This document shows positions 1-14,373 of a stretch of 64,000 bases of DNA, piece by piece; positions within the stretch are counted from its first letter, which is position 1, and every line of letters begins with the position of its first letter. Under the pieces are notes generated by a model, which did not search any database, was not told the origin of the DNA, and was given only the letters and a program-made list of their open reading frames with translations. Both the position numbers and the translations under genes were made by a program. The DNA comes from Cyanidioschyzon merolae (Eukaryota). Where the stretch lies: the NCBI GenBank assembly GCA_000091205.1, contig AP006500.2. The stretch is one strand, 5' to 3'.

Positions 1-3000
1 CCCCCCATTTCCCCCCATATCCTTCGACTCCTACAAGTCGCGATGCTGATTCTTGTCGTTGATTCTTTTAATGTCCCGCAGTCTCGTTGGCGTTGCTTTC
101 TCGATGTTTTTCTTTTCTGGGTTTATTTTTTGTTAGTTGTTAGCGCATTCTGGCAATCCAGTTACTTTGGAGCTGTATTCGATAGGCAACAGTGGTCACT
201 TGGAATCAACGCTTACCTTTGTTTGTACGCGACCCTAAATTTCGTAGCGGGCCCGTAAACAAAGCTCTAGCTTACTTGCGCCTTTGCCGTTACTACCCAC
301 AAAGTATTTATTTTGTGCAACTCCAACCTGTCTCAGTTGCCTCACGATAATTATGCTTGATTCTGTTTTCTTACGCCTTTTGTATCTCTTGTTCTCTTTT
401 CTTGGGCGTTTTTGTTTACGATTGGTTATCTAGCCTTTCTTGTACTCCCGTTCGGTGACATGTCCATGTGCTGATTTTCATCGAGGCTCTACGTATCCTT
501 ACCCATGGGCTACGGCTCGTCACTAATTTTTTATCGATTAGGGTGCTGTGGAGCGATTGGTTTCGGTCTGTGTCTTTTTTCTTTTCTTTTAATGTCATTG
601 CCTGGTGTGAGCCCTGTTTTAATTCCGGGGCTGCAATGCCAAAGACAGCATTTGGCTTGTACGTTTTGGATTATCTGTTGGCTTGCACCCAGCACGCTTT
701 GGGGCCCGCCTGGGGAGCCCAGGCTCCTCCGAGCACCCCCATGCTTTACGGTTTTGATGACTTTTTTTCCTATGACAATGCGTTATCTGGAACTGGCGAT
801 CTCTTTGTTCGGTGCTTCAGTACACTTTTGTCTTTGCTCGTTTTTGCGCCCAAAATTTTTTTGCAGCACTAAATATATGCATTTTTCTGTTGCGGATCAT
901 ATCAAGCATGTCGTACGTTCCGCGGCGTATATTCAGTATAGAACGTCTTCTCATATTCATCATGGACTCCAACGCATTGCGCTCTCTTTAATGTTTCTGC
1001 GCAAGAGTGTACGATTGCGGTGCTCTACGGAACGATACTGCAGTCTTGTGCACTACTTTATGTTCCGTAGACTGCTATTGGAAATTCACGTATGTCGCAC
1101 TAGTGCAGGTATTGCATCGACTGCGATCGACTCACCGATAATCCATATTGCTTGTGTTCCGCTTTCCACATAATCTCCATCGTAGGCCTCTGGAATCTGC
1201 AAGGGGGACAAACTGTACCACCAGGTATCTTTTGCCTTTCGGGCTTCAGATGCCAATCTCTGGAATAGATATCGAATGCTTCGTGGGCTCCTACTCTATT
1301 TGAGACTGGATATACTCGTTAACATACTGTGTCACCCTTTTCATGGGCAAGATAACGCACACTACCATACCGCTTAGGAAAATGCGTGGCAGCAAATATG
1401 GGCGCCCAAATTCACAAATGAACATTCAGTACAGGCGTATACTTTCATTCGCTTGTCATGAAAGCCTTCATCACCATCGTTGGATCTGCCTCCCTGGCCG
1501 CCGCTTCTCGAGAATCCGGAATCCTCGCTCCGATTCCGGTATCCTCTTCCTGGGATACCTCGATATCTGCTGTCGAACTGGATCATCACCAGAACCTCCT
1601 TTACATCGCCAGACTGCAAGCTGTTATCCAAGTTTTTGTGTTTGTGCTCGATGGCAGGCTGCTATCGCTGCACAAGATGCCTGGTCATGCATTTTCTAGT
1701 GGCGTACCCCTATCGATCCAAAATCACGATTCCAACCATCATTATGCAGACAGACAAGCTCTTTCGACCACTTTCAATATGCCAAGTCTATTGACTATGA
1801 CAAGCTACTGCGTTAGCGATCCATTCGCCACATCTGCAAGCACCTACTTCGTGGCCGCCACGAATGAAGCGTAAATTTGCTGTTCCGCCCGTCCACGGCT
1901 GGTACTATCTTTCGGCTATCATCATGACACCCGCGGTATCCTTTCTGCCTAGGGTTGCATCTAAGTTCCGTCGCACCGGTGCTCGCAAGCGTGCCAGAGC
2001 CCAACGCACGCCATCCCTTGCGACGCATACTACCCGAAGAAATCAACTCTTGCACCGTCTACAACGAAGAGCCCCGATCACGCCGGCTATTCTTGCCTTC
2101 CGTCTACACTCAAAGCGATCCTGGTCGGCACTGCAGGGTCTCGCTAGTTCAGGTCAGCATCCAGGTTGGCGTCGCTTTATAAGATCATGTCTGCGAAAAG
2201 CACCTCAATCCTTTACACTATTAGTCGATGGCCCCCGCTAAGATATAGCTGCGATGTCCATCACATGACGAAGACTTCGGCAACTATGGAAATCGTGAAG
2301 CTTGAGATCTTTTTTATTCGTTACATCTTATTGTGCATCTCGGTTTTTTTCTTAACCGAAGGACAAGTGTCCATTCATCAGCAGTAGATTCAATCATAGG
2401 GTATCTCGCAACGAACTTGCACATAATCGATAGGTACGGTTACAGAATGAGAGCTCCTAGGTTGCCTTCAATTCTGCTCGCCGTGCTGCGGTAACTCTCA
2501 CTTTGGCTAGATTCGCCCCCTGGATCTCGCTGTGCGCTCTATCTTGCCTGTACGCTTTAGCACGCTTGCGACATGTCCATGGTCTTACAGCGTACTTGCG
2601 CCCTCTGCTTGGAGTCATTTTCTCGACAACAAGCCCAAATCGGGGACTTGATCCCAACAGTGCGCTACAGTCGATTTTGGACACTTTTTGTATAACAGAC
2701 AGCAGGCAAGAGTCTGAGAACTTCTGAGGCGACCCTTCCGCATTTGGAGCAGGCAACATGCGCTTTCGATGCTAGAGCTGTACGTGCGCTGTGAGGCTGG
2801 TAGCTCTGCGACTTTCTTACTCAGCGACGCTGCTGCAGATGAAATGGATTCAGTGATATATACGCTTACCCTAGGAATACCGTATTCTGGTGAAATGTTC
2901 AGTTGCACGGATAGAATTGCACTTGCTCTGGAACTACTATTCGTGGGCAGAATCCATGCTAGTACACCAATCCTACAATGCTTACATCCCTTTGCGTCGT

Positions 3001-3368: not shown

Positions 3369-6125
3369 TCAAGCAGAAACTGAAGCTGAACCCGAAACCG
3401 ATGTTGACGCACTCGCAGACACCGCCGCAGAAGCTGTCGCAGACACCGTCGCAGAGGGTGTCGCTGTCGCAGCCACGGGACTCGGAGTCGGTGTTGAACT
3501 AATCACGACACACTGGTTGTTGATGCACTCCTCGTCAGCGCGGCAGCAACGCATCTTGTTCACAAGGTTATCCGAAGGGATCAGGTACGTCCCGCACTGC
3601 TTCGTAGGGTCCTTGCACACACAGAATGACGGCAGCAGCACCTGTTGTTGTTGCTGCTGCTGTTGCAATTGTTGCTGCAGTTGCTGGTTATTGTTGTTGC
3701 TGAACGGGATGTACGTGCAGTTCTGCGTCTCGGCGTTGCAGCACTCAGGGCCGCAAGCAATATAGCTCGAGTTCGATACGTTGCTAGTGGTGCCGCTCAG
3801 CGAGTTCGACACAAACCCGTAGGTCTGGCACACGTACTCGGTAACCGGCTGGAAGCACTCGTTGCCGAGCCCCAGGCAGCAACCAGCCTCCAGACACTGC
3901 TGCGGCGAGTAGCTCGTGCGCTGCGTCCCGTGCTGCTCTCCGTACAGGAGCGTGTTCAGCAGACGCACAAACTGGCTACTGTTGATGTTATTGTTGGTCA
4001 GCTGCTGGTTCTGATTCACCGCGTTCGTGCACGGCTGGCGCTCAAACTCACCCACCGCGCACGTCTTCTCGGGCTGGAAGCAGTACGGGTTCGACGCAAA
4101 GTCGCTCTGCTGCTTGCCGTTCTGCACCCACAGGTTCTGCGCCTGCGAGTCGTAGCAGCAGCCCTGGGCATAGCACGTAAACTGGTTGATACCCGCGTTA
4201 CCACACGGCTGGCGCTGCGCTCCCGGTGACGGGCAGACGGGCACCGGTGCCTGCACCTCCTGTAGCGCTACAGAAGCCTGGGGTGCATGGTCGATGTTGT
4301 AGTAGCACCAGGGCGCGAGGATGCCGTTCGCTGTTGGCTGCCAGCAGCATCCCGGTATCGCAGTGCACTCGTCGGGATAGATGTAGCTCCAGCCGCAGGG
4401 GACGCGCTGTGTCACTGGAACAGCGCTGCACGCCGCTGAGACGCTTTTCAGGGTGCACGCGTTTGTCTGGGCGTTGAAGCAGCATCCGACTTGCTCGCAA
4501 GCGTCCTGGTTCGTGTATTGTCCCGGGGAACCGCAGATCTCATTGGTGCACACGGGAGTAGATGTAGGCGTTGGCGTCAGTGTGAACGTCGAGGTTACGG
4601 TTGCTGTTATCGTAGGTGTAGCCGTAGATGAAGCGGTTGCCGAGAATGTTGGGGTCGATGTAGGAGTTGGCGTTGATGTTGGCGTAGGCGTAGAGGTAGG
4701 CGTAAAGAACGTTTCACGCAGTGCGAAAACATCATTGAAATAGCCATGTCGGCTAGTGTTTGAGTATCCGAATCCGCCAAATAGGATCGGATCGGTCCCA
4801 CTTGTATTCCAGAAAGCTGGTCCTAAGCGACCGCCAGGTACAACACTCGAGCTGGACTCGTTCAAAACTCCATATACTGAAAGAGCATCCACACTTTGGC
4901 TTCCATTGATCCACGCCCACTGACCAAGTGTGATATCAAATACCCAAAGATCGTTCAAAAAGCCAAAGGATTCGCTCGTATTGGCGAGTCCCTCACCGCC
5001 AAACAGCTGTAGATTACCCAAAGAATCCACAAAACTTACGCCTGAGTCTCTTGCACCTGGGTAACTGGTTGGGGAGAAAGCACCGAGAGTTCCATAAGAC
5101 CCTGGATTATTAATAGTTGTATTTCCTGCAATCAAAATCCATACGGATTGACTTATATTGTAGACCCAGAGATCATTGAAGTCCCCTCCTCCTAGTGCTG
5201 TGCTGTTTTCGAAGCCAAAACCACCGAACAACCAAAGATTTCCTTCAAAATCTGTCCAAGTATACGAGCCGCTGCGCGCACCTGGGGCATTTGAGTTGCT
5301 CGCCACGCCAGGTGCGCTATAGTTACCAGGCTGGTTAACAAGTTGTGATCCGCCTCTGTATGCCCATTCGAATGTAACAGGGTTGAATGACCAGAGATCT
5401 GACAAAATATCCAGCCCATTATTTGTCCCACCACCAAACAACCAAAACAGACCGTCTGCGCCTAGCCAGAATGCCGCGCCATCTCGGCCTCCGGGGTTGT
5501 AAAATGGACCAAAGACGTCCTTCGGTCCATAGACTGGATTGGCGTTAATAGTATCATTCCCACTGAACCACGTCCAGATTCCCGTTTCAGTATCGTACCG
5601 CCACATGTCGTTCAGGTCTCCCGCATTACCGTTCACATCTAAGCCGAAGCCCCCAAACAACCAGAAATGCTGCTCGTCCGTCTGCCAATACGCACTTCCG
5701 TAACGACTGCCAGGTATATTGGCTATGCCGCCTACGCCAAGTGTCCCATATACTCCTGGTTGGTCGACTTCTGAGGAACCACCTATCCACGTCCACTCGA
5801 GCGAGGTCAGGTTGAATTTCCACAGATCATTAAGGAGGCCCCCTGTTGTGTTTCCATTCCCATCCCCGCCAAACAAGTACACTACGCTCGAACTTCCGAC
5901 CCAGGCTGCTGAATAGGCACGGCCTCCTGGAACACTCTCTGGAGACGTCTGGTTCAACGTTCCATACCTGCCAAAGTTACCAGTACCCGTCTCTCCTCCT
6001 ATCCAGGTCCAGCTAACCGTACTCACAGGCGACAACGCAGCTACAACCGACACGGAAAACGTCGCCGCCAACAATAGACAAACAGCAACAACCAGGCCAC
6101 GCGCCAGAGAAAGAGCTCGAAACAT
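3369..6125 (-). CDS. Secreted kelch-type beta-propeller protein with a Thr/Pro-rich linker and four Cys-rich (trefoil/P-like, C..GCC) modules; N-terminal signal peptide.
   Basis: 918-aa ORF. The N-terminus MFRALSLARGLVVAVCLLLAATFSVSVVAA looks like a signal peptide. The motif (W/L)TWIGG recurs at propeller-blade spacing. The linker is TPTSTPTPTSTPTPTSTP. Repeated cysteine modules include CEQVGCCFNA, CTAIPGCCWQP, CYAQGCCYDS and CLEAGCCLGL. A polyQ run comes from (CTG/TTG)n at about 3640-3710. The stop is TGA. Confidence 0.75.
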   Translation of the reverse strand: MFRALSLARGLVVAVCLLLAATFSVSVVAALSPVSTVSWTWIGGETGTGNFGRYGTLNQTSPESVPGGRAYSAAWVGSSSVVYLFGGDGNGNTTGGLLNDLWKFNLTSLEWTWIGGSSEVDQPGVYGTLGVGGIANIPGSRYGSAYWQTDEQHFWLFGGFGLDVNGNAGDLNDMWRYDTETGIWTWFSGNDTINANPVYGPKDVFGPFYNPGGRDGAAFWLGADGLFWLFGGGTNNGLDILSDLWSFNPVTFEWAYRGGSQLVNQPGNYSAPGVASNSNAPGARSGSYTWTDFEGNLWLFGGFGFENSTALGGGDFNDLWVYNISQSVWILIAGNTTINNPGSYGTLGAFSPTSYPGARDSGVSFVDSLGNLQLFGGEGLANTSESFGFLNDLWVFDITLGQWAWINGSQSVDALSVYGVLNESSSSVVPGGRLGPAFWNTSGTDPILFGGFGYSNTSRHGYFNDVFALRETFFTPTSTPTPTSTPTPTSTPTFSATASSTATPTITATVTSTFTLTPTPTSTPVCTNEICGSPGQYTNQDACEQVGCCFNAQTNACTLKSVSAACSAVPVTQRVPCGWSYIYPDECTAIPGCCWQPTANGILAPWCYYNIDHAPQASVALQEVQAPVPVCPSPGAQRQPCGNAGINQFTCYAQGCCYDSQAQNLWVQNGKQQSDFASNPYCFQPEKTCAVGEFERQPCTNAVNQNQQLTNNNINSSQFVRLLNTLLYGEQHGTQRTSYSPQQCLEAGCCLGLGNECFQPVTEYVCQTYGFVSNSLSGTTSNVSNSSYIACGPECCNAETQNCTYIPFSNNNNQQLQQQLQQQQQQQQVLLPSFCVCKDPTKQCGTYLIPSDNLVNKMRCCRADEECINNQCVVISSTPTPSPVAATATPSATVSATASAAVSASASTSVSGSASVSA

Positions 6126-8914
6126 CTCGTTCGACGCTCTCTCAGTCCAATAAATACGGATATTTGTTCTTTCTCGAGTGAATATATCTTCACTATTGTT
6201 TTTTCGTTATGGCCAACACGAACGTAACCGCCGTGTGTTGTGAAAGCCAAAACAACAACGCACAACGTGATAGCGCCAAAAACGCGAAACGCGCGCGCGC
6301 ACTGCAGAGGAATTTGAATTGGGGTCATCATGATGCGATGAAGAATTCACGTTGATGTCGAGACTGGAGCGTAACGGACGTACGGAGATCGGGGTACATA
6401 GTCCGAAATATCCAAGTTGAAAGAGGTACTAAAAACTATATATAGGCTAGTGGGATTTCATTCGAATGAGTAACTCCCGAGTACTGCTCCTTCCAGGTGC
6501 GAGTCAGCAGGGTTCTGCAGGTCACGGCTCTGGGTAAGAAGGATAGCGAATAACAAACTATCGGTTGCTGAGGTTCGTCTTCCACCTGAAAGGCAGATGA
6601 ATCTCTAAGGCGTATTTTCTATTTTATATTTTAGGGAGACGATTGTAGTGGAAGTATTCGGTGTTAGATTTATTGTGTTGCAGTCCTGTTCTCGTGGTGA
6701 CAGCCAAGCTGAGTAGTTGGGAGGTTTATGTAGGTCTGTACCATTGGTATTTGTCTTAGATAAGAAACATTAACTAGTGAGCTCCAATATTTCTATTGCG
6801 AGGAATACTAAACAATATTGCTCGCGAGGAATGTGGTCTCTGATTCGGGACCCTCCCTCGTTGCTCGAAAACACCCGCACATGTCCGTACCCATGCTTCA
6901 GCTATCAACCCACGAAGTGGGAACTCGTAAGTCACTTCTTCATCTAACCGTATTCGGCGTAAGCTTTGAGCATGTATTTCAACTGCCGCTGGCAAGCCTT
7001 GCATCACCATGCATTTGCAGGGCTGGCGCAGACCAATGATCCGCGTAGAATACTTTCACAATCGGAGACTTCCTCACGTTTCATCCAATATACCGAAAAA
7101 TCCTCCGTGGAGTGTATTTTTACATCCCCGCCCCGGAAAGAGAGCTCTGTTGCTGCAGATGACACTATCTACATGAATGTCGGCCTCGATCCGTAACCCG
7201 CCAAGGGCGTCATGACACCAATGAATATCCATGCTCGCATTTCGGAGTGGGAACTTGTTGAACTTTGAAAATGCTCTAGTCTGAATTGGTCTTTTGGCAG
7301 CAGCCAAGATAATGGTCCAACGTCTGGGGGCTCGAGAACTGAAATCAGATCATGTTTGCCTGCTTGATCAGAGTCGCTGAATGTGTAGCTGCTTTTTCAA
7401 GACGGTGCCTAGCATCATGAACAATTGTATTCCCAGAGGCGTCGTTCCGTAACTGTTTAGTTGAGTAGCGGGCAATTTATAAGTACCATATACACCTTTG
7501 GCGATCCGACAGTCTTCCCAGCAGGATCCACGAAAATCTCCGCATAGTTATCGAGCAAACAGCGAGACTTGGCGACCAAGTCTACGGACAAATTCTATCT
7601 CGAACTTCAACCGTGCTCAGGCAATGATGCCAGCACCTGTTTCGCAATGTGCTTTTCATACAGCACATTGCCCAGTACATATCCTTTCTTCTTGAACGCT
7701 CTCCCCAGACATATTGCCCTGGATTCCTTGTTCTCTTTTGTCCAATGATTCGCGGGAGGCACGATCACCGGCTCTGTCAGTGAGCGGAGCCATGATCCAT
7801 TCCTTGGGCCTCTCGCATTGTTCTGTGTTCGATGGCTCGCTGCTACGGCTTCATCGGAGTTTATTTGGATTTTCTCGCATGCGAAGGCGCGTTCTGGAGT
7901 TTAGAGCTTCTTCATGCTACGATCTAGCTTCTGAAATATTTTTCGCAATCTAACCTGCGGGCTGCTTGCGTGGTTCAGCTGCTTACCCTACAGTATCCAA
8001 AGAAAACAGAAAACAGAAGCTAAATACATGCTCGCAACTAGATATTCGCAATTTATCCCCCAGAGTAGAAGTTGAAAGCCGAAATCAACCTTCAATTTGA
8101 CGATTCGCCTTCTTGGCAGAATCTGCCTCGAAAGGGTAAAATCTGTGGAGATGGTACATCCCGTTTCCTCGCCGTAGTGGCGGTGTTCAAACACGACCCA
8201 CGTTGCTCCTCTTCGGCACCGCTTTCCCAGTACACACGGGGAAGGCTGTGTTGGTCAGCACCGTGCCGTAGTAGTCTAGCTTCTTCTAGCCCGCCACTCG
8301 ATGGCTGTCGCTCGGCTGTCGCAGACTAATGACATGTCCTAGCGCACTGCCCGGAAGGTACGACCCACTAATATAACATGAGAGACCGCTCTGCAACTCG
8401 TAGAATCCATTCAAATTCGGAAGAGGGCACTCATAGCATCCCCTGTACCCAGGCAGCTCCTAGGGACCAGGGAAATCCTGATTCCATGCATCTGTCTCAC
8501 GGCCGGAGCAAAAGAATCGGATGCATTTCATATTCAGTACCAGGTCCCACGATGAGATTCAACAATAAATGTCCCTAATTCTGAACGCTTTCGCGTACAC
8601 TCCAGAGCGGATACGCTATATGCAGTGGCCGCACATATGCTCTACACTCACGGACGACCGATTTTAGCATACTCTGGCGCATTCGATGCGAAGTAGGTCA
8701 TAGCTATAGCTATATTAATCACTATTGCAGTACGCTTCATGACTCGCGGAGCGATTTTGGTTCACCACGTCAGGAGGAGTGCCCTCTCACCCGATCACTA
8801 TCCTAGTATGACTGTGGCATGCCGTCTCATCCGTACGCTGTTGCTCCCACATCCGTCCTTGACGCAGCGGTCTGCGCTCCGAAGCCCGCATCTCATTTTC
8901 ATCACTAACAAACC

Positions 8915-10174
8915 TTAGACAGGGGCCAAGATAGTCGACTTGAGGCTTCGCCGCCGCAACGCCTGGTCGATCAGATCAAGACTCAGTTCGTAAAGCTGAT
9001 CTGCCTTGTCGATTTCGTATGTTGGTTCAATAACCTGCGGTTTCGTCTTCTATCCCCCATCCGTTTATTTGCCACGCCACTGATAATACGAGCCCGAGTC
9101 CGAGAACTGTCCCTGGGTCGCCACTTCGGCTACGCGGCGGCCGGCCTCATCATTCGGAACGTATTGCCGAGTGATGTACTTCTGAAGAATCGGGAAGAAT
9201 ACGCAGCGGAACCAGCCACGCTTTTCGCGGAAGAGGTTGCTGTCGGCGACACATCCCGGAAAAATCGCCACAGAGGTCACCCCGCCGCGGCCGTATCGAT
9301 CACTGAGCGCCTTCGTTGTTAACACCTTCGCGGCTTTGGCGTCTTTGTAGGCTTTTGTGGGCTCAAACGGACTATTCTCTTCCATGCCAGTCGTCTACGG
9401 ACCGAGCCCTGCGGCTAGACCAGACAAATCACCAAGACGAGCCTGCGGGGGGATCTTTCCCGGCAACGAATTCGGCGAGTGTGTCTGAGTTGTCAGAAAC
9501 ACAATGCGCCCGCGCGATATTTTCAGCTTCGGCAACAGCTCCCGACATAGAAGCAAATGGCTCAGATGGCATACCTGCATGGTTTCCTCGATGCCGTCCA
9601 CCGTGAAACGCCGTTTCTTGTCCGGCGGATGCCAGAGTGCGGCATTGCAGATCAGGGCATCCATGTGATCAACGCGCGCCACACTCTATTGCTCTCTCAC
9701 AAACTTTAGTACAGAGGCGAAATCAGCCAGATCACAATGCAGCACTGTATAGGCGTCCTTTGGAAGGTTCACGCTGTTTGCTGCGCGTTCCGCCCGGTCG
9801 ACGTCACGACATGCCATGACGATGTTCCAGTTGCCCTTGTTGATCAGAGCGCGAGCTGCATACAGACCGACTCCAGAGCACGCGCCAGTGACCACGGCGA
9901 TCTGCGACTGTTTCGGGCCCATACGAAGATGCAGCGCGTGGTGCCGGCGCGCTACAGGCGATCGCTGCACCACCAAAGGAAGCGGATGCTGGCAGTAATG
10001 ACGATGTCCAGCTGTGAAGCACCTGTCACGTGCGGTACACAGCGGAAACGGTGCTCGAGTTGCAGCGGGTGCGCCAACTATGTGTTTTTCCTGGCACAGC
10101 GAAAAACAAACCAATACGTCTTGCAGTTTTTTGGGATAGATTTTCTCTGGTGGTAAAGCTGCCAACTTCATCAC
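8915..10174 (-). pseudogene. POR: Light-dependent protochlorophyllide oxidoreductase (POR)-like SDR gene. The frame is continuous but interrupted by four in-frame stop codons.
   Basis: The three listed ORF fragments (9686..10174, 9395..9682, 9065..9385) and a further downstream stretch (8918..9049) are all in one frame. Recognisable POR blocks are [26 protein letters not shown] (Rossmann GxxxGxG), DALICNAAL, RIVFLTTQT..LGDLSGLAAGL, KAYKDAKAAKVLT (catalytic YxxxK), IFPGCVADSNLFRE and FFPILQKYIT, plus a C-terminal DKADQLYELSLDLIDQAL resembling the POR C-terminus. The in-frame stops are TAG at 9686-9688, TAG at 9395-9397, TAA at 9065-9067 and TAG at 9050-9052. The final TAA is at 8915-8917. Confidence 0.7.
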
Positions 10175-12514
10175 CGACTAAAGTCGTTCGCGTACGCATG
10201 CATATCCAGTGAGAAATCCTTTTTTCGTTGCTGCACGAGTGATCGCCCGTCAATTGCACAGAGTCCGACTTGTAACTCCCGTAGACTGTCTAGCGTTAAG
10301 CGCATCGAGCACAAGCGCTCAATGTCTTATACAGAGACTAGGCAAAACTCGCAGTTTGCCGAGCAATAATCTCGTCAGTACTGGCCGGTAAGTGTTCCGC
10401 AATGCTGAGTTCAAAGATTACAATGATTGTTGAGGCACGTCGCAGCAGCTCACCGACGAATAACGTAGAGGAGGTACAAGGGACTTACTTCCGGTGGTAC
10501 GTTATTTTGGAAGCGTCTGCACGTCAGTTGGACACGTCACGTCTAGGGCGGGTCTCTCGCCACTACTGTGCACGGCCGGCGACAAAATTTTTCTTTTCAA
10601 GGTCATTTGTTGTTGGTTGTGTCGCTTACGAGCTCGCTGTACTGGTTGGACTCTTGAACTAATCTTATAAAGTAGATCGGAAAACAATATGTGCTTTTGT
10701 CGGATGCCTCGATCGTCCCAGGCGAGATGCAATGCTCAAACGTCGTGGCAGATATAGATGCTATATGTATGCTATGCTTCTGCCGAGATCGCCGGATCCG
10801 AAGGACGTACAGGACACCATAGCTTGTACAACGATGATAGCATGGAAATGACTTGAACTGGCATCAGACCCAGCCCATGACGCCGGATAGATGCAACTTT
10901 CAGGTCAGGTCCTTATTCCAGTGTCCGTGCGGCATGAATAACAAGCATAGGGATTAAAATTATATCCGTGGCCGGGAACACTACCGTACCTAGTTCGGTT
11001 ACGATCCATACAACAGCCGAAAATCCTATTGAGGAGAGTGATGCATACCTAATCCGCATGAGCGTAGGATACTACGATGACTACGCTTTTGATAGAAGCA
11101 TCGCGGAGTTTCGAGCCAGGTCTCAACATCCCGTCGTATGTCAGGGCGGTACTGCAATGGGGAGTAGCGTCGGCACCAGCGACAGAGTCTATAGCATGAT
11201 ATCGTTCTACGTGAGTTTCCGATCTACGATACTTTACTTCCGCTGCAGCGCGATGCGAACACGCATGAGCCACGGCGGCGTCGGACACGTGTCCTTCATC
11301 GATCGGTGAGGCGTCTCGCGCGGTGGACGCATTGTGCGCAGTGAGCGCATCTGGGAGATCGGGAAGTCACGTGACATGATGCGCATGCCGCCGTTGAAGG
11401 AAAACGCGATTGGGCTCAGTCGCGTGTTGTTCTACCGGAGAAAGTTGGATCTCCATCGAGGTCGTAAACAAGTGTAGTTATCAGTTCATTAGGTTCTGGA
11501 AATTCGAGCAAGTCTAGTCAAGTGTTTATCGCAGTACATGACAGAAGGGTTCAAAGAGCGTCCTTTTTCGAAAAAAAAAACTAAAAAAGGAAAGCTATGA
11601 AAAAACAAGTCGACGATCCTGGAGGCCCAGGGTCGCAGGCTGCCAGAAAAAATAATAAACAACAGTGACAAGTCCGGAAGAAAATGAAGAGAAGAAGAAG
11701 GACCGAAGGGGGGCCCTTCGTTGAAAGCTGCAAGAAAGACAACTTTACCACGAGAAGGTGGTGAAAGCCTTCCTTCTTGGACATATCAGACATCCCTGTA
11801 GGGAAAAGTTGCGAGACGCTATCGAAAAACGTGTCGACTCGAACTCCATGACTACCGTAAAGGCGTCGTCAGGACTTATGCATTTGGTGAGGGAGATGTG
11901 TCGCGACGTGATGCGCATGGAAACGGTCGAGATTCCGGACGAGTTTCATTGATACGATCTTTATTCGTCACCTGATTTTTGGTACAGAGGAAGCGCGGAA
12001 GGAAAACGAGCTGGTGCATGCTCTCCACGAAAAACATCCCTTTTACGGGCTCGAGAGTACTCCATACAAGTGAGACTGCAGTAATTACATCTACGGAACG
12101 ATGAAGTACCTCACGAACCTGACGAACCATTGACAATGAACCTCGAACTTTTCATAATACGCGCCGTGTTTGGACGTTACCCGAGCGTCTCTCGCAAAGG
12201 GGATATGGGCGATGATCAATTGCATCACGAAAGATCGAAAGTATGAAGATATGGTCGACTTTGTTGACAAGAAGGCGTCGAAAGAGAGCACGAATGAAGC
12301 TACTGTAATCCGTGCGGTTGTACATGAGCACTGTTTAGTCTTGGGGCTGGCGAATCCAGCGGAAATGGCATCATATATAGAAAAAAGATGAAAAAAGATG
12401 TTATCACCTCATCTTGCTCTATTTCGTATTCCTGAATCGAGTACGCGAACGCAAGGCAGAGATGAAGCCTAGTGAGGAGAACATGAAGCGTGGGGGAGAC
12501 GGAAGGCGTCCCTA

Positions 12515-12823
12515 ATGCGTAAGCGCTTCAATGGCGCTCCGTTGTGCAACATCAAGTCATATTTTGTGAGCATCGACTTTAGAAACCTTCACGGCATCAT
12601 GAAGGAGATCAGTCCCGAGCTCGATGTTAGCAGGGAGGACTTCAGCGGCGAAAACTGGCAGACGTACTGGAAGAGTATCTTCGATTTCAAACGTCTGAAA
12701 GTCAGCAAACAAAAGGTATTCGTGGGGAGATCGAACAGATGGAATAACCTTGTGTATGCACTATCGGCGGTTGAAGAGAGATCATCAAGTTCCTCCCTCG
12801 GCTGCGCCCGTGACGAAGGATGA
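12515..12823 (+). pseudogene. N-terminal module of the TnpB/Fanzor-like protein (copy 1 fragment).
   Basis: [41 protein letters not shown] aligns with copy 2 [41 protein letters not shown] (42918..43127). Confidence 0.5.
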
Positions 12824-13568
12824 AGATGAGATGGAGGCGGATCCTGCAACGCAGAAAGTGCAGGATAACGAGTTCATCGTTGACGGGGCGAAGGATGAAA
12901 ATGAGAAGGGGGCGGATCCTGCTAAGCAGGAGGTGGAGGATAACGACCTTGTTGTTGACACGATGAAGCATGAAGATAACAAAGAGACGGGTCCTGCGAC
13001 GCAGGAGGTGGAGGATAACGACTTTATTGTTGACATAACGAAGGATGAGGATGAGAAGAAGGCGGGTCCTGTGATGCAGGAGGTGCAGGATGACGCCTTT
13101 ATGGTTGGCGCGGTGAAGCATGATGAAAACAACAAGGCGGATCCAGCGACCCAGAAAGTGCATGATAATGACTTTATCGTTGGCGCGGACCCCGGAAACA
13201 CAAATATCATCACCATCGCAGCACCGAAGCGTGCGGGCGATGGTGCTGATGGTAACTTACGTCAGAAAGACATGCACCTTTTGAGGTTCTCGAGAGCGAG
13301 ACACTATCGAGAATCGGGTATAATGAATGCGAGGAAGAAAACTGAAACATGGAAAGCAGGAATAAAGGATCACCCGGAAGCTTTGAGCGAGGCGACGAGC
13401 CGAGGAGCGGACTTTGAAGCTTTTCGGAAATTCGTGGAAGTTCGTGTTGCTCATTGGGATGCGCTGTGGGAGGCGTATACCAAGCCACAATGGGCTCGGT
13501 TGCGAATCAATCTATACGGTGGGAAGCAGCGGGCGTTCGCCAACTTTTTCAATCAGTTGAGCGCCTGA
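12750..13568 (+). pseudogene. TnpB/Fanzor-like RuvC module, copy 1 fragment: RuvC-I region plus a 5x 75-bp in-frame repeat expansion, then truncated by a frameshift.
   Basis: ..[67 protein letters not shown] is collinear with copy 2. A 1-nt loss near 13566 shifts the frame. In-frame TGA and TAA follow in the continuation (13454..13648 and beyond). Confidence 0.55.
12830..13195 (+). repeat. Tandem 75-bp coding repeat (about 5 units), present only in copy 1 of the element.
   Basis: A repeated peptide of about 25 aa, DPATQKVQDNEFIVDGAKDENEKGA, and variants. Copy 2 has a single unit ([21 protein letters not shown]). Confidence 0.8.
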
Positions 13569-13753
13569 AGGAGGATGATAGTCGAAGGCTGGTAGTGGCA
13601 TACGGAGCAGGGCGCTGGGTGCCCAAGAAAGGAACTACTCCAGCTTGAACGACGATGGTGTAAAAGGAGTGCGCAGTACGTTTCGTAACGATACCTGTAG
13701 ATGAGTTTCGAACGTCCTATATACACCATGAACTGGGGTGTACACTTCAGAGC

Positions 13754-14098
13754 GTGGAGATGGAAAAGTGCCAGCGGAGCCTTGAGGATGTAAAAAAGTA
13801 TGGACCGCTGACGGAGGAGCAAATGGAAAGGAGGGTGGAAGTGCGAGGGCTACTCGCATTGATTAGTATGATCAATGGCAAGAAACGTATGGAGTTCGTG
13901 AACCGAGACTTTAATGCCGCTATCAATATCAGGAGATGTGCGGTGCTGGAGAAAAGACCTCCAGAGTCGACAAGAGGGAACTTTGTTGGACAACCTCTCG
14001 AAGTGGAACTATATGAGAAAAAATTGGAAGCAGTCATGGGTGGCCGGTCGAGAAAGACGGGGAGGCGTCCGCACTCCAGTTGGAGACGTTTTGTCTAA
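13754..14098 (+). pseudogene. C-terminal fragment of the TnpB/Fanzor-like protein (copy 1) containing the RuvC-III motif.
   Basis: ..[34 protein letters not shown].. carries the hallmark TnpB/Cas12/Fanzor RuvC-III signature RDxNAAxNI. It aligns to copy 2 ..[34 protein letters not shown].. Confidence 0.6.
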
Positions 14099-14373
14099 GG
14101 CGCGTTCGCCGCCACTAATGTACACCGCTGGCGACGGCGGCGTTAGATGCGTGCCACGTGGCACTCGATACGCGCTCTGCAGGGGGTCTTCGGGATTCGA
14201 GATGCGAGCTCCATGACACGTTGCAGCGGATCATGCGTGACGTGCGCTCGCATCTTTCTGATGCCCGCGACGCCGTATGTGTGTTTTCCCGCCTTTATAA
14301 CACAAAGCACTGCTTATACTCGCGTTACTAAAAGTGAGTTTCCTTCTAGGCACCAGCGAAGACGTGGGAATCA

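What the first reader, a model, noticed from the sequence alone, without database searches (positions are those of the whole stretch)
8915..10174. POR homolog with four in-frame nonsense codons but zero frameshifts across about 1.26 kb
The three fragments of the POR-like gene plus a further C-terminal stretch are all in one continuous frame, and conserved blocks align on both sides of every stop. The sequence reads ..FVREQ then TAG then SVARVDHMDALICNAAL.., next ..AAGLGP then TAG then TTGMEE..KAYKDAK.., and finally ..YYQWRGK, TAA, TDGG, TAG, KTKPQV..DKADQLYELSLDLIDQAL. Neutral decay would normally add indels well before four nonsense substitutions accumulate. Other genes in the window terminate normally with all three stops: TOR and SQD1 with TAG, G6PD with TAA, Ubc13 and SQD2 with TGA. 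Global stop reassignment is therefore unlikely. The remaining options are a very young pseudogene (for example POR made redundant by plastid DPOR), context-dependent readthrough, RNA-level correction, or strain or assembly artefacts.
Basis: partly seen in the sequence, partly recalled or inferred. Interest (0 to 1): 0.65.

Follow-up and report, generated by a model that had tools for sequence, protein, structure and literature searches.

The report
Subtelomeric dead copy of POR gene
This is an ordinary dead duplicate of the chlorophyll-synthesis gene POR, about 9-10 kb from a chromosome end of the red alga Cyanidioschyzon merolae, where POR copies are already known to be duplicated and shuffled; its four stop codons with no frameshift are normal for this gene family and need no special decoding.

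Summary
Window 10126..8915 (minus strand) is a 1212-nt, gap-free counterpart of the functional light-dependent protochlorophyllide reductase (LPOR) gene. It has in-frame TAG, TAG, TAA and TAG at the stated coordinates.

The window is the left end of the 1.25-Mb chromosome of Cyanidioschyzon merolae 10D and starts with telomere repeats, so the copy is subtelomeric. POR is a published component of this genome's subtelomeric repeat elements (Nozaki 2007). The genome also has at least two intact 403-aa POR genes.

Forty-three related loci from JGI/IMG metagenomes show a large family of decaying POR copies.
- The family has 14-15 distinct nonsense sites against 8 frameshifting indels.
- About half of the distinct full-length copies have no indel.
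- Two of the window's stops (codons 354 and 359) are shared with other copies.
- Only 8 of 81 differences from the functional gene are private, and all 8 are non-synonymous.
- The canonical ATG is CTG.
- The syntenic copy in a 0.3%-divergent environmental strain lacks all four stops and carries two frameshifts instead. That indicates ectopic exchange among chromosome ends.

Verdict: a young, mosaic, non-processed pseudogene. Readthrough and code reassignment are contradicted. RNA editing has nothing in its favour but could not be tested directly. An assembly error remains formally open only for the two private stops. DPOR redundancy is wrong, because C. merolae lacks DPOR. Interest is low.

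The parts
8915..10126 (-). POR (LPOR) pseudogene. It is the 1212-nt CDS-equivalent of the 403-codon functional gene, including the original TAA terminator at 8915-8917.
   Evidence: Ungapped alignment to L001:189-1400 with 81 substitutions. TIGR01289 E=5.3e-86. Collinear with PDB PORB.
10124..10126 (-). Position of the canonical start codon, now CTG instead of ATG.
   Evidence: In alignment A1 the functional gene reads AAAATGCAAGCC and the window reads AAACTGCAAGAC. The window translation starts LQDVLV where the functional protein starts MQALFV. L002 carries the same CTG in alignment A1.
10127..10174 (-). Equivalent of the 5' leader of the functional gene. It happens to be open in frame and holds an upstream ATG at 10169-10171.
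   Evidence: The same N-terminal extension, [10 protein letters not shown]..., is called as a 418-aa protein in metagenome copies P0002 and P0137.
9686..9688 (-). In-frame TAG at codon 147. Other copies read TCA or TCG (Ser). The disabling C>A change is private to the window, and so is the adjacent L146Q change.
9395..9397 (-). In-frame TAG at codon 244, from CAG (Gln). The C>T change is private to the window.
9065..9067 (-). In-frame TAA at codon 354, from TAT (Tyr). It is shared with environmental copies L003, L016 and L030.
   Evidence: Segment 1001-1100 of the CDS is identical to those three loci.
9050..9052 (-). In-frame TAG at codon 359, from GAG (Glu). It is shared with L003, L009, L013, L016 and L030 and belongs to the same 5-substitution block as codon 354.
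1..20 (+). Telomere repeat, C-rich strand (CCCCCCATT). It marks the chromosome end.
   Evidence: The repeat unit AATGGGGGG is given in PMC1955436.
3300..14200 (.). Repeated subtelomeric block shared with many environmental Cyanidioschyzon-like contigs. Sequence proximal to about 14.2 kb is unique.
   Evidence: blastn of window 1-25000 against the loci: 6-12 loci match at 3.3-8.2 kb, up to 38 across the POR copy, 21-29 at 10.5-14.2 kb, and only the 2 syntenic loci beyond that.
3369..6125 (-). Intact 918-aa Kelch + Trefoil gene, a neighbour of the POR copy in the subtelomeric block.
   Evidence: Pfam Kelch families and Trefoil PF00088, E=4.9e-13.
11300..14200 (+). Decayed Fanzor1/TnpB-like transposable element (apparently CMe-1A) just upstream of the POR copy. 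It was co-duplicated with POR in most loci.
   Evidence: ORFs carry GADPGNTN... and NRDFNAAINIRR motifs. Longer versions are present in L029 and L016. Pfam gives only a faint Cas12f1-like_TNB hit. CMe-1A is described in PMC3627910.

Best explanation
The feature is a non-processed (duplicated) pseudogene of the nuclear light-dependent protochlorophyllide oxidoreductase gene. It lies 9-10 kb from the left telomere of the 1.25-Mb chromosome of Cyanidioschyzon merolae 10D, inside a subtelomeric repeat block. POR was copied to several chromosome ends. At least two copies remain intact and supply the enzyme, so the others are free to decay. The copies exchange sequence by ectopic recombination or gene conversion between chromosome ends, so each copy is a mosaic. 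Mosaicism has two effects. It keeps the copies much closer to the working gene than their flanks are, and it spreads disabling lesions between copies. In this copy two stops (codons 354 and 359) arrived as one shared block. Two stops (codons 147 and 244) plus six missense changes are recent and private. The canonical ATG is lost. No frameshift is present because small indels are intrinsically rare in this DNA, and because only about 2% of the copy's divergence appears to have accumulated without constraint. What is shown: the identity of the gene, the location, the lesions, the sharing of lesions and the mosaic pattern. What is inferred: the exchange mechanism, the absence of expression or function, and the split of the divergence into a selected phase and a neutral phase.
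For: Organism and position: SQD1 and SQD2 in the window are exact matches to C. merolae 10D BAM82303 and BAM82305, on a 1,253,087-bp record. The window starts with the telomere repeat.

Intact paralogs: BAM81403 and BAM79708, both 403 aa, lie on other chromosomes.

Published context: POR ('P') is listed among the genes of the homologous DNA elements next to C. merolae telomeres, with PH elements at eight chromosome ends (PMC1955436).

Family of decaying copies: 43 metagenome loci were recovered. Stops occur at 15 codons (12, 51, 147, 165, 244, 258, 277, 278, 305, 321, 322, 353, 354, 359, 379). There are 8 frameshifting indel events. About half of the distinct full-length copies have no indel.

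Shared lesions and mosaicism: stops 354 and 359 are shared. CDS nt 1001-1100 are identical to L003, L016 and L030. Nt 201-300 are identical to L002. Nt 1-100 are closest to L015 and L044. Only 8 of 81 differences are private.

No constraint on recent changes: the 8 private changes are 6 missense and 2 nonsense, with none synonymous. Functional POR shows pN 0.07 against pS 0.79.

Syntenic comparison: L023 and L042 are 98-99% identical to window 8664/9713-20127. The unique part differs by 18 sites in about 5900 bp, while the POR part differs by 69 in 1210 (Fisher P=1e-37). L023's copy has -1 at nt 164 and +1 at nt 844 and no stops.

Indel rarity: 0.024-0.039 gap openings per mismatch in the flanks and 0.009 in the POR copies. 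Family-wide there are at least 581 substitution events. Fifteen of them (2.6%) are nonsense, against 3.2% expected for unconstrained change.
Against: Pairwise dN/dS between the window copy and the functional gene is 0.25-0.35, not about 1. Taken alone, that could suggest residual constraint. I attribute it to divergence that accumulated while the copies were functional, and to conversion from functional copies. That attribution is inference. If only about 25-30 substitutions are neutral, four stops is a mild excess (P about 0.01-0.02 for four or more, 0.05-0.075 for three independent events). The catalytic YKDAK and the nucleotide-binding GxxxGxG motifs are still present. The two private stops could not be confirmed in independent reads or assemblies. 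Metagenome contigs of multi-copy repeats can be chimeric, which could exaggerate apparent mosaicism. However, the L023-type copy recurs in three samples (L023, L024, L042), and the 354/359 block also recurs in three (L003, L016, L030). I could not read the other 10D chromosome ends.
Confidence: 0.93

Rival explanations
1. The gene is functional, and its four stops are bypassed by context-dependent translational readthrough to give a full-length POR-like protein.
For: There is no frameshift over 1212 nt. The key LPOR motifs are retained. Pairwise dN/dS against the functional gene is 0.25-0.35.
Against: Stops 147 and 244 are private. The syntenic copy L023 has none of the four stops and carries two frameshifts. 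All 8 private changes are non-synonymous. The canonical ATG is lost, and the transit-peptide region differs at 22 of its first 100 nt. The bases following the stops are UAG-AGU-GUG, UAG-ACG-ACU, UAA-ACG-GAU and UAG-AAG-ACG. From my own knowledge, none of these matches the known readthrough contexts CARYYA or CUAG. Four successive readthrough events would leave a negligible yield. Two intact paralogs exist.
Confidence: 0.02
2. The stops are sequencing, assembly or strain artefacts, and the real locus is an intact gene.
For: Subtelomeric repeats are hard to assemble. Stops 147 and 244 were seen only in this sequence. No independent ORF call from this locus was on record.
Against: Stops 354 and 359 recur, within an identical 100-nt segment, in three independently assembled metagenomes (L003, L016, L030). 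The C. merolae 10D sequence was finished to completion, chromosome ends included (PMC1955436). The lost ATG is shared with L002. Even without the two private stops the copy would still be disabled.
Confidence: 0.03
3. The transcript is corrected at the RNA level, with editing of UAG and UAA to sense codons.
For: No positive evidence. This was simply not excluded by DNA alone.
Against: Restoring Ser, Gln, Tyr and Glu would require four different base changes: A>C, U>C, A>U/C and U>G. To my knowledge no single editing system performs all of these. The syntenic copy in a sister strain carries different lesions, namely frameshifts. The pattern of private changes is unconstrained.
Confidence: 0.01
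4. The stops lie in short introns whose lengths are multiples of three, so the spliced gene is intact.
For: The organism is a eukaryote.
Against: The alignment to intact POR genes and proteins is gap-free, and each stop replaces a single homologous codon, so there is no extra sequence to remove. C. merolae has only about 27 introns (PMC9812998 table).
Confidence: 0.005

Closest known systems
Subtelomeric homologous DNA elements of C. merolae 10D that carry POR ('P', for example the PH elements at 6L, 7R, 8L, 8R, 11L, 14R, 18R and 19R), described by Nozaki et al. 2007, BMC Biol 5:28 (PMC1955436)
   Same: Same genome and same gene. The copy lies within 10 kb of the telomere repeat, inside a block repeated elsewhere, next to a Kelch/Trefoil ('T') gene.
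   Different: The paper's text lists 18R, not 18L, among the PH ends, and it does not mention pseudogenes. I could not see Figure 3 or the other 10D chromosome ends. I therefore could not confirm which element type 18L was assigned to, or whether this copy was drawn as 'P'.
Functional C. merolae LPOR paralogs BAM79708.1 / XP_005535994 and BAM81403.1 / XP_005537439 (403 aa)
   Same: The best hit, P0001 (the representative of the 90% cluster that holds both proteins), is 93% identical in amino acids to the window copy. That gene (L001) is 93.3% identical in nucleotides and collinear codon for codon, with the same 3' terminator and homologous 5' and 3' flanks.
   Different: The window copy has four in-frame stops, CTG in place of ATG, a heavily altered transit-peptide region and six private missense changes.
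Subtelomeric multigene families with pseudogene members and ectopic gene conversion, such as yeast subtelomeric families, human subtelomeric olfactory-receptor copies and trypanosome VSG pseudogene arrays. This comparison is from general knowledge and is echoed in the discussion of PMC5405695.
   Same: The copies are mosaic and share lesions. Divergence is far higher in the repeat than in the adjacent unique DNA of a close strain (5.7% against 0.3%). Homology ends at a breakpoint just distal to the gene.
   Different: There is no evidence that the pseudogenes serve as functional donors. The gene is a housekeeping chlorophyll-synthesis enzyme, not a contingency or surface gene.

Membership tests
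Light-dependent protochlorophyllide reductase (LPOR, TIGR01289; SDR superfamily) | Full-length collinear similarity to the LPOR profile and to solved LPOR structures | tested here: met
   TIGR01289 E=5.3e-86 over profile positions 2-312 of 315. The score of 289 bits is below the curated cut-off of 331. PORB structures 9tl6 and 7jk9 match at E about 1e-70 over residues 9-318.
Light-dependent protochlorophyllide reductase (LPOR, TIGR01289; SDR superfamily) | Nucleotide-binding GxxxGxG motif and catalytic YxxxK motif | tested here: met
   The translation contains [10 protein letters not shown] and KAYKDAK. Functional copies read GASSGVG, so there is one Ser>Cys change.
Light-dependent protochlorophyllide reductase (LPOR, TIGR01289; SDR superfamily) | Uninterrupted reading frame with a start codon and plastid transit peptide, that is, able to make the enzyme | tested here: not met
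   There are four in-frame stops. The ATG is replaced by CTG, and 22 of the first 100 nt differ from the functional gene. The feature is derived from LPOR but is not a working member.
Non-processed (duplicated) pseudogene | Intact paralog in the same genome, with homology extending into the flanks and no poly-A or intron-loss signature | tested here: met
   The intact paralogs are BAM79708 and BAM81403. Homology to the functional-type locus L001 continues 5' and 3' of the CDS.
Non-processed (duplicated) pseudogene | Disabling mutations | tested here: met
   Four nonsense codons and loss of the canonical start codon.
Non-processed (duplicated) pseudogene | Relaxed selective constraint | tested here: inconclusive
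   The private changes are 8 of 8 non-synonymous, which fits neutrality and is very unlikely under the constraint seen on functional POR. The family's substitutions are spread 174/160/247 over the three codon positions. However, overall pairwise dN/dS against the functional gene is 0.25-0.35, which I explain by youth and conversion.
Non-processed (duplicated) pseudogene | No functional product (no transcript or protein) | not testable with these tools
   No RNA-seq, Ribo-seq or proteome data were accessible. Subtelomeres of C. merolae are reported to be enriched in H3K27me3 (PMC5405695), which is only indirect.
C. merolae subtelomeric homologous elements (Nozaki 2007) | Adjacent to the AATGGGGGG telomere repeat | tested here: met
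   Window bases 1-20 are CCCCCCATTTCCCCCCATAT, and the POR copy lies at 8.9-10.1 kb.
C. merolae subtelomeric homologous elements (Nozaki 2007) | Homologous to the terminal regions of other chromosomes of the same genome | not testable with these tools
   The other 10D chromosomes were not available. As a surrogate, 43 metagenome loci share the block, many of them at contig ends.
Programmed stop-codon readthrough or recoding | The stop and the downstream ORF are conserved in orthologs under purifying selection | tested here: not met
   The syntenic copy L023 has none of the four stops and has two frameshifts. Two of the stops are private.
Programmed stop-codon readthrough or recoding | A known readthrough-promoting context 3' of the stop | tested here: not met
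   The contexts are UAG-AGU-GUG, UAG-ACG-ACU, UAA-ACG-GAU and UAG-AAG-ACG, read. None matches CARYYA or CUAG. The comparison motifs are from my own knowledge.
Stop-codon reassignment (variant genetic code) | In-frame stops widespread in conserved genes, with the reassigned codon not used as a terminator | tested here: not met
   The 2737-aa TOR-like ORF, the 918-aa ORF and two 714-aa ORFs are uninterrupted. Ten neighbouring ORFs end in TAG, TAA or TGA. SQD1 and SQD2 translate exactly to the annotated proteins.

The most novel reading that the evidence does not exclude
The nonsense-before-frameshift pattern may be a genome-wide mutational signature of C. merolae. [quoted passage not shown] In this region it shows only about 1 indel per 26-70 substitutions. 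Its pseudogenes would then typically decay by substitution, while subtelomeric gene conversion keeps dead POR copies close to the working genes and possibly usable as donors. Such a signature would make this compact genome a natural test of how loss of a repair pathway shapes pseudogene decay.
Probability: 0.2. Interest if true: 0.35.

Novelty: new member of a known kind. Interest (0 to 1): 0.1.

Why it matters
It matters little for biology at large. The finding documents that one subtelomeric POR copy of a model red alga is a young, mosaic pseudogene, and it removes any need to invoke recoding, editing or a variant genetic code. There are two modest by-products. First, environmental contigs show directly that C. 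merolae chromosome ends exchange sequence much faster than unique DNA diverges, 5.7% against 0.3% between two close strains. Second, small indels are unusually rare relative to substitutions in this DNA. That is worth remembering when frameshifts are used as the hallmark of pseudogenes in this lineage.

Tried and rejected
- **Independent confirmation of the locus.** I made exact-protein look-ups of four ORF fragments of the window copy: a 161-aa, a 106-aa, a 78-aa and an 89-aa fragment. None was on record. The two private stops therefore remain unverified by independent data.
- **DNA of the two intact 10D paralogs.** P0132 and P0133 were not on record in the contig index. I used the Logan contig L001, which encodes P0001 of the same 90% cluster, as the functional reference instead.
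- **RIP-like or deaminase-type mutagenesis as the source of the stops.** Rejected. The four stops arise by C>A, C>T, T>A and G>T changes, and the 81 differences split into 45 transitions and 36 transversions.
- **A telomere-like motif created by the codon 354-359 block (GATGGGGGA).** Rejected as chance, since 27 of 100 shuffles give at least one match.
- **Short in-frame introns.** Rejected because the codon-for-codon alignment is ungapped.
- **dS between C. merolae-type and Cyanidiococcus-type POR.** It is saturated (pS 0.76-0.79). Only pN and pS could be reported as a baseline for functional constraint.
- **Identifying the 11.3-14.2 kb element with Pfam or PDB sequence searches.** This gave only a faint Cas12f1-like_TNB hit. 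The identification rests on the catalytic-motif pattern and on the literature description of CMe-1A.

Full report
**Observation.** Translating window 8915-10174 on the minus strand gives one continuous frame. It is interrupted by TAG (9686-9688), TAG (9395-9397), TAA (9065-9067) and TAG (9050-9052), and it ends at TAA 8915-8917. The conceptual protein is a full-length LPOR. It scores E=5.3e-86 against TIGR01289 over profile positions 2-312 of 315. That score, 289 bits, is below the curated cut-off of 331. It is collinear with Arabidopsis PORB structures over residues 9-318.

**Organism and position.** Two ORFs in the window translate exactly to C. merolae 10D proteins: SQD1 (BAM82303) and SQD2 (BAM82305). 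Both lie on a 1,253,087-bp record. The window begins CCCCCCATTTCCCCCCATAT, the C-strand of the C. merolae telomere repeat AATGGGGGG (PMC1955436). The POR copy therefore sits 9-10 kb from a chromosome end. Long uninterrupted ORFs, such as the 2737-aa TOR-like ORF, show the standard genetic code. So do terminators of all three kinds in ten neighbouring ORFs.

**Relation to the working gene.** The same genome encodes at least two intact 403-aa PORs, BAM81403 and BAM79708, on other chromosomes.
- The window copy aligns to a functional-type gene (L001:189-1400, encoding P0001 of the same 90% cluster) without any gap over 1212 nt. There are 81 substitutions, or 6.7%.
- The CDS-equivalent is window 10126..8915. 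The part from 10174 to 10127 corresponds to the 5' leader and only happens to be open.
- The canonical ATG is CTG, and 22 of the first 100 nt (the transit-peptide region) differ.
- The stops replace Ser147, Gln244, Tyr354 and Glu359. Each stop replaces one homologous codon, so introns are excluded.

**Published context.** Nozaki et al. 2007 sequenced all 40 chromosome ends and found eight types of homologous elements, up to 20 kb long, next to the telomeres. POR ('P') is named among their genes, and PH elements occur at eight ends. The 918-aa ORF at 3369-6125 is a Kelch + Trefoil protein, matching their 'T' gene class. C. merolae lacks plastid DPOR (PMC8003979, Table 3).

**The family in nature.** A scan of JGI/IMG metagenomes returned 43 loci with close POR relatives, many of them at contig ends. 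Projected on the functional CDS, they form a family of decaying copies.
- In-frame stops occur at 15 different codons. There are 8 different frameshifting indels and 2 net-zero complex events.
- About half of the distinct full-length copies carry no indel at all. Several carry only stops, for example L003/L016 with three and L006, L007/L008 and L011/L012 with one each.
- The family shows at least 581 substitution events, spread 174/160/247 over codon positions. Fifteen of them (2.6%) are nonsense. I computed an expectation of 3.2% for unconstrained substitutions in this CDS.
- Non-coding flanks of the same element show only 0.024-0.039 gap openings per mismatch, and the POR copies show 0.009.

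In this DNA a nonsense substitution is therefore at least as likely as a frameshift. Four of four disabling events being nonsense has P about 0.17. For three independent events P is about 0.26.

**The four stops are not four independent events.**
- Of the 81 differences from the functional gene, only 8 are private to the window copy.
- Stops 354 and 359 lie in a block of five substitutions that is identical in L003, L016 and L030. CDS nt 1001-1100 show zero differences from these three loci, which come from three different metagenomes. Stop 359 also occurs in L009 and L013.
- Other segments are closest to other copies. Nt 201-300 are identical to L002, and nt 1-100 are closest to L015 and L044. 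Nt 501-700 and 901-1000 are closest, or tied for closest, to the functional type. The copy is a mosaic.
- The 8 private changes are H44Y, L146Q, S147*, L155M, I164L, Q244*, D281G and G394S. All are non-synonymous.
- That pattern fits neutrality, with P about 0.1. It is very unlikely under the constraint seen on functional POR, where pN is 0.07 and pS 0.79 against the Cyanidiococcus-type gene. My estimate for that case is about 5e-6.

**The syntenic locus in a close strain.** L023 (a 65.7-kb contig) and L042 match window 8664/9713-20127 at 98.3-98.9% and run into the unique chromosome sequence.
- In the unique part (14.2-20.1 kb) the two strains differ at 18 of about 5900 sites. In the POR copy they differ at 69 of 1210 (Fisher P=1e-37).
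- Homology ends altogether at window 8664.
- L023's POR copy has none of the window's stops. It carries -1 at nt 164 and +1 at nt 844 instead. L042 and L024, from other samples, carry the same lesions.

The chromosome end distal to the POR region has therefore been exchanged or converted since the strains split. This is ordinary subtelomere behaviour, and it argues directly against any conserved function for the stops.

**Points that cut the other way.** Pairwise dN/dS between the window copy and the functional gene is 0.25 for the mature part and 0.35 for the whole. The POR segment is also much less diverged among copies (about 8.5%) than its flanks are (about 17-19%; my arithmetic from the mismatch and aligned-length totals).
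- I interpret this as divergence that mostly accumulated while the copies were functional, plus conversion from functional copies.
- A rough partition, assuming dN/dS of 0.08 for the functional phase, leaves about 2% neutral divergence, or about 25 substitutions.
- On that estimate four stops is a mild excess (P 0.01-0.05) and zero indels is unremarkable (P 0.4-0.55).
- The mild excess is expected for two reasons. Stops are imported in blocks, and this copy was selected for attention because of its stops.
- Metagenome contigs of repeats can be chimeric. The key haplotypes recur in three samples each, which limits this concern.
- The two private stops could not be checked in independent data.

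**Verdict.** This is a young, mosaic, non-processed POR pseudogene in a known subtelomeric repeat of C. merolae 10D. Readthrough, introns and code reassignment are contradicted by the evidence. RNA editing has nothing in its favour but could not be tested directly. An assembly artefact remains formally open only for two of the four stops, and it would not rescue the gene. Interest is low.

**Side observations.**
- The 11.3-14.2 kb segment just upstream of the POR copy is a decayed Fanzor1/TnpB-like element. It carries GADPGNTN... and NRDFNAAINIRR motifs, and more intact versions are present in L029 and L016. It fits the CMe-1A element of Bao and Jurka 2013.
- C. merolae is reported to lack classical NHEJ (PMC6635534). 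A link to the low indel rate is possible but untested.

Noticed in passing
window 1-20: The window starts with the C-rich strand of the C. merolae telomere repeat (CCCCCCATT, about two units). The window is therefore a true chromosome end.
   Followed up: yes
window 3369-6125 (-): An intact 918-aa ORF with Kelch repeats and two Trefoil domains. This is the 'trefoil factor' / K+T class of subtelomeric duplicated genes described for Cyanidiales. The exact sequence was not found in the protein collection, possibly because the annotated start differs.
   Followed up: partly
window about 11300-14200 (+); L029 2152-4446 (-); L016 2823-4037, 6340-7095 and 7288-8475 (-): A decayed Fanzor1/TnpB-like transposable element lies next to the POR copy. 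Its motifs are [22 protein letters not shown] (seen in the loci) and NRDFNAAINIRR. It appears to be the CMe-1A element of Bao and Jurka 2013, reported as about 150 copies at about 80% identity. Pfam gives only a faint Cas12f1-like_TNB hit. The element is co-duplicated with POR in most metagenome loci.
   Followed up: partly
window 12812-13182: A 75-bp (25-codon) tandem repeat of about 4.9 copies lies inside the Fanzor-like ORF. It encodes an acidic repeat (roughly ...DEDEKEADPATQEVEDNDFIVD...) and explains the strong purine skew of the 12-14 kb interval.
   Followed up: no
L014, L018, L043 (proteins P0005, P0141, P0142): Some environmental POR copies carry +1 at CDS nt 844 and -1 at nt 945. 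About 34 codons are therefore read out of frame before the frame is restored. Gene callers report these copies as full-length 403-aa 'protochlorophyllide reductase'.
   Followed up: partly
L002/L004 and L005 (proteins P0002, P0137): Copies that share the window's altered 5' end have an uninterrupted 418-aa ORF starting from a new upstream ATG. They also carry changes at residues that are identical in all intact red-algal copies I compared (MACRD>MACSD, ICNAA>TCNAA, LFREK>LFLEK). They are probably dead copies without a stop yet, but function was not excluded.
   Followed up: partly
window 6200-8850 and 10200-14150 against loci L002-L045: The indel-to-substitution ratio in this subtelomeric non-coding DNA is low, at 0.024-0.039 gap openings per mismatch. 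C. merolae is reported to lack classical NHEJ (PMC6635534). A causal link is possible but untested.
   Followed up: partly
window 8664 / L023 11462: Homology between 10D and the syntenic environmental contig ends abruptly about 250 bp distal to the POR terminator. This marks a breakpoint of a terminal exchange between chromosome ends.
   Followed up: partly
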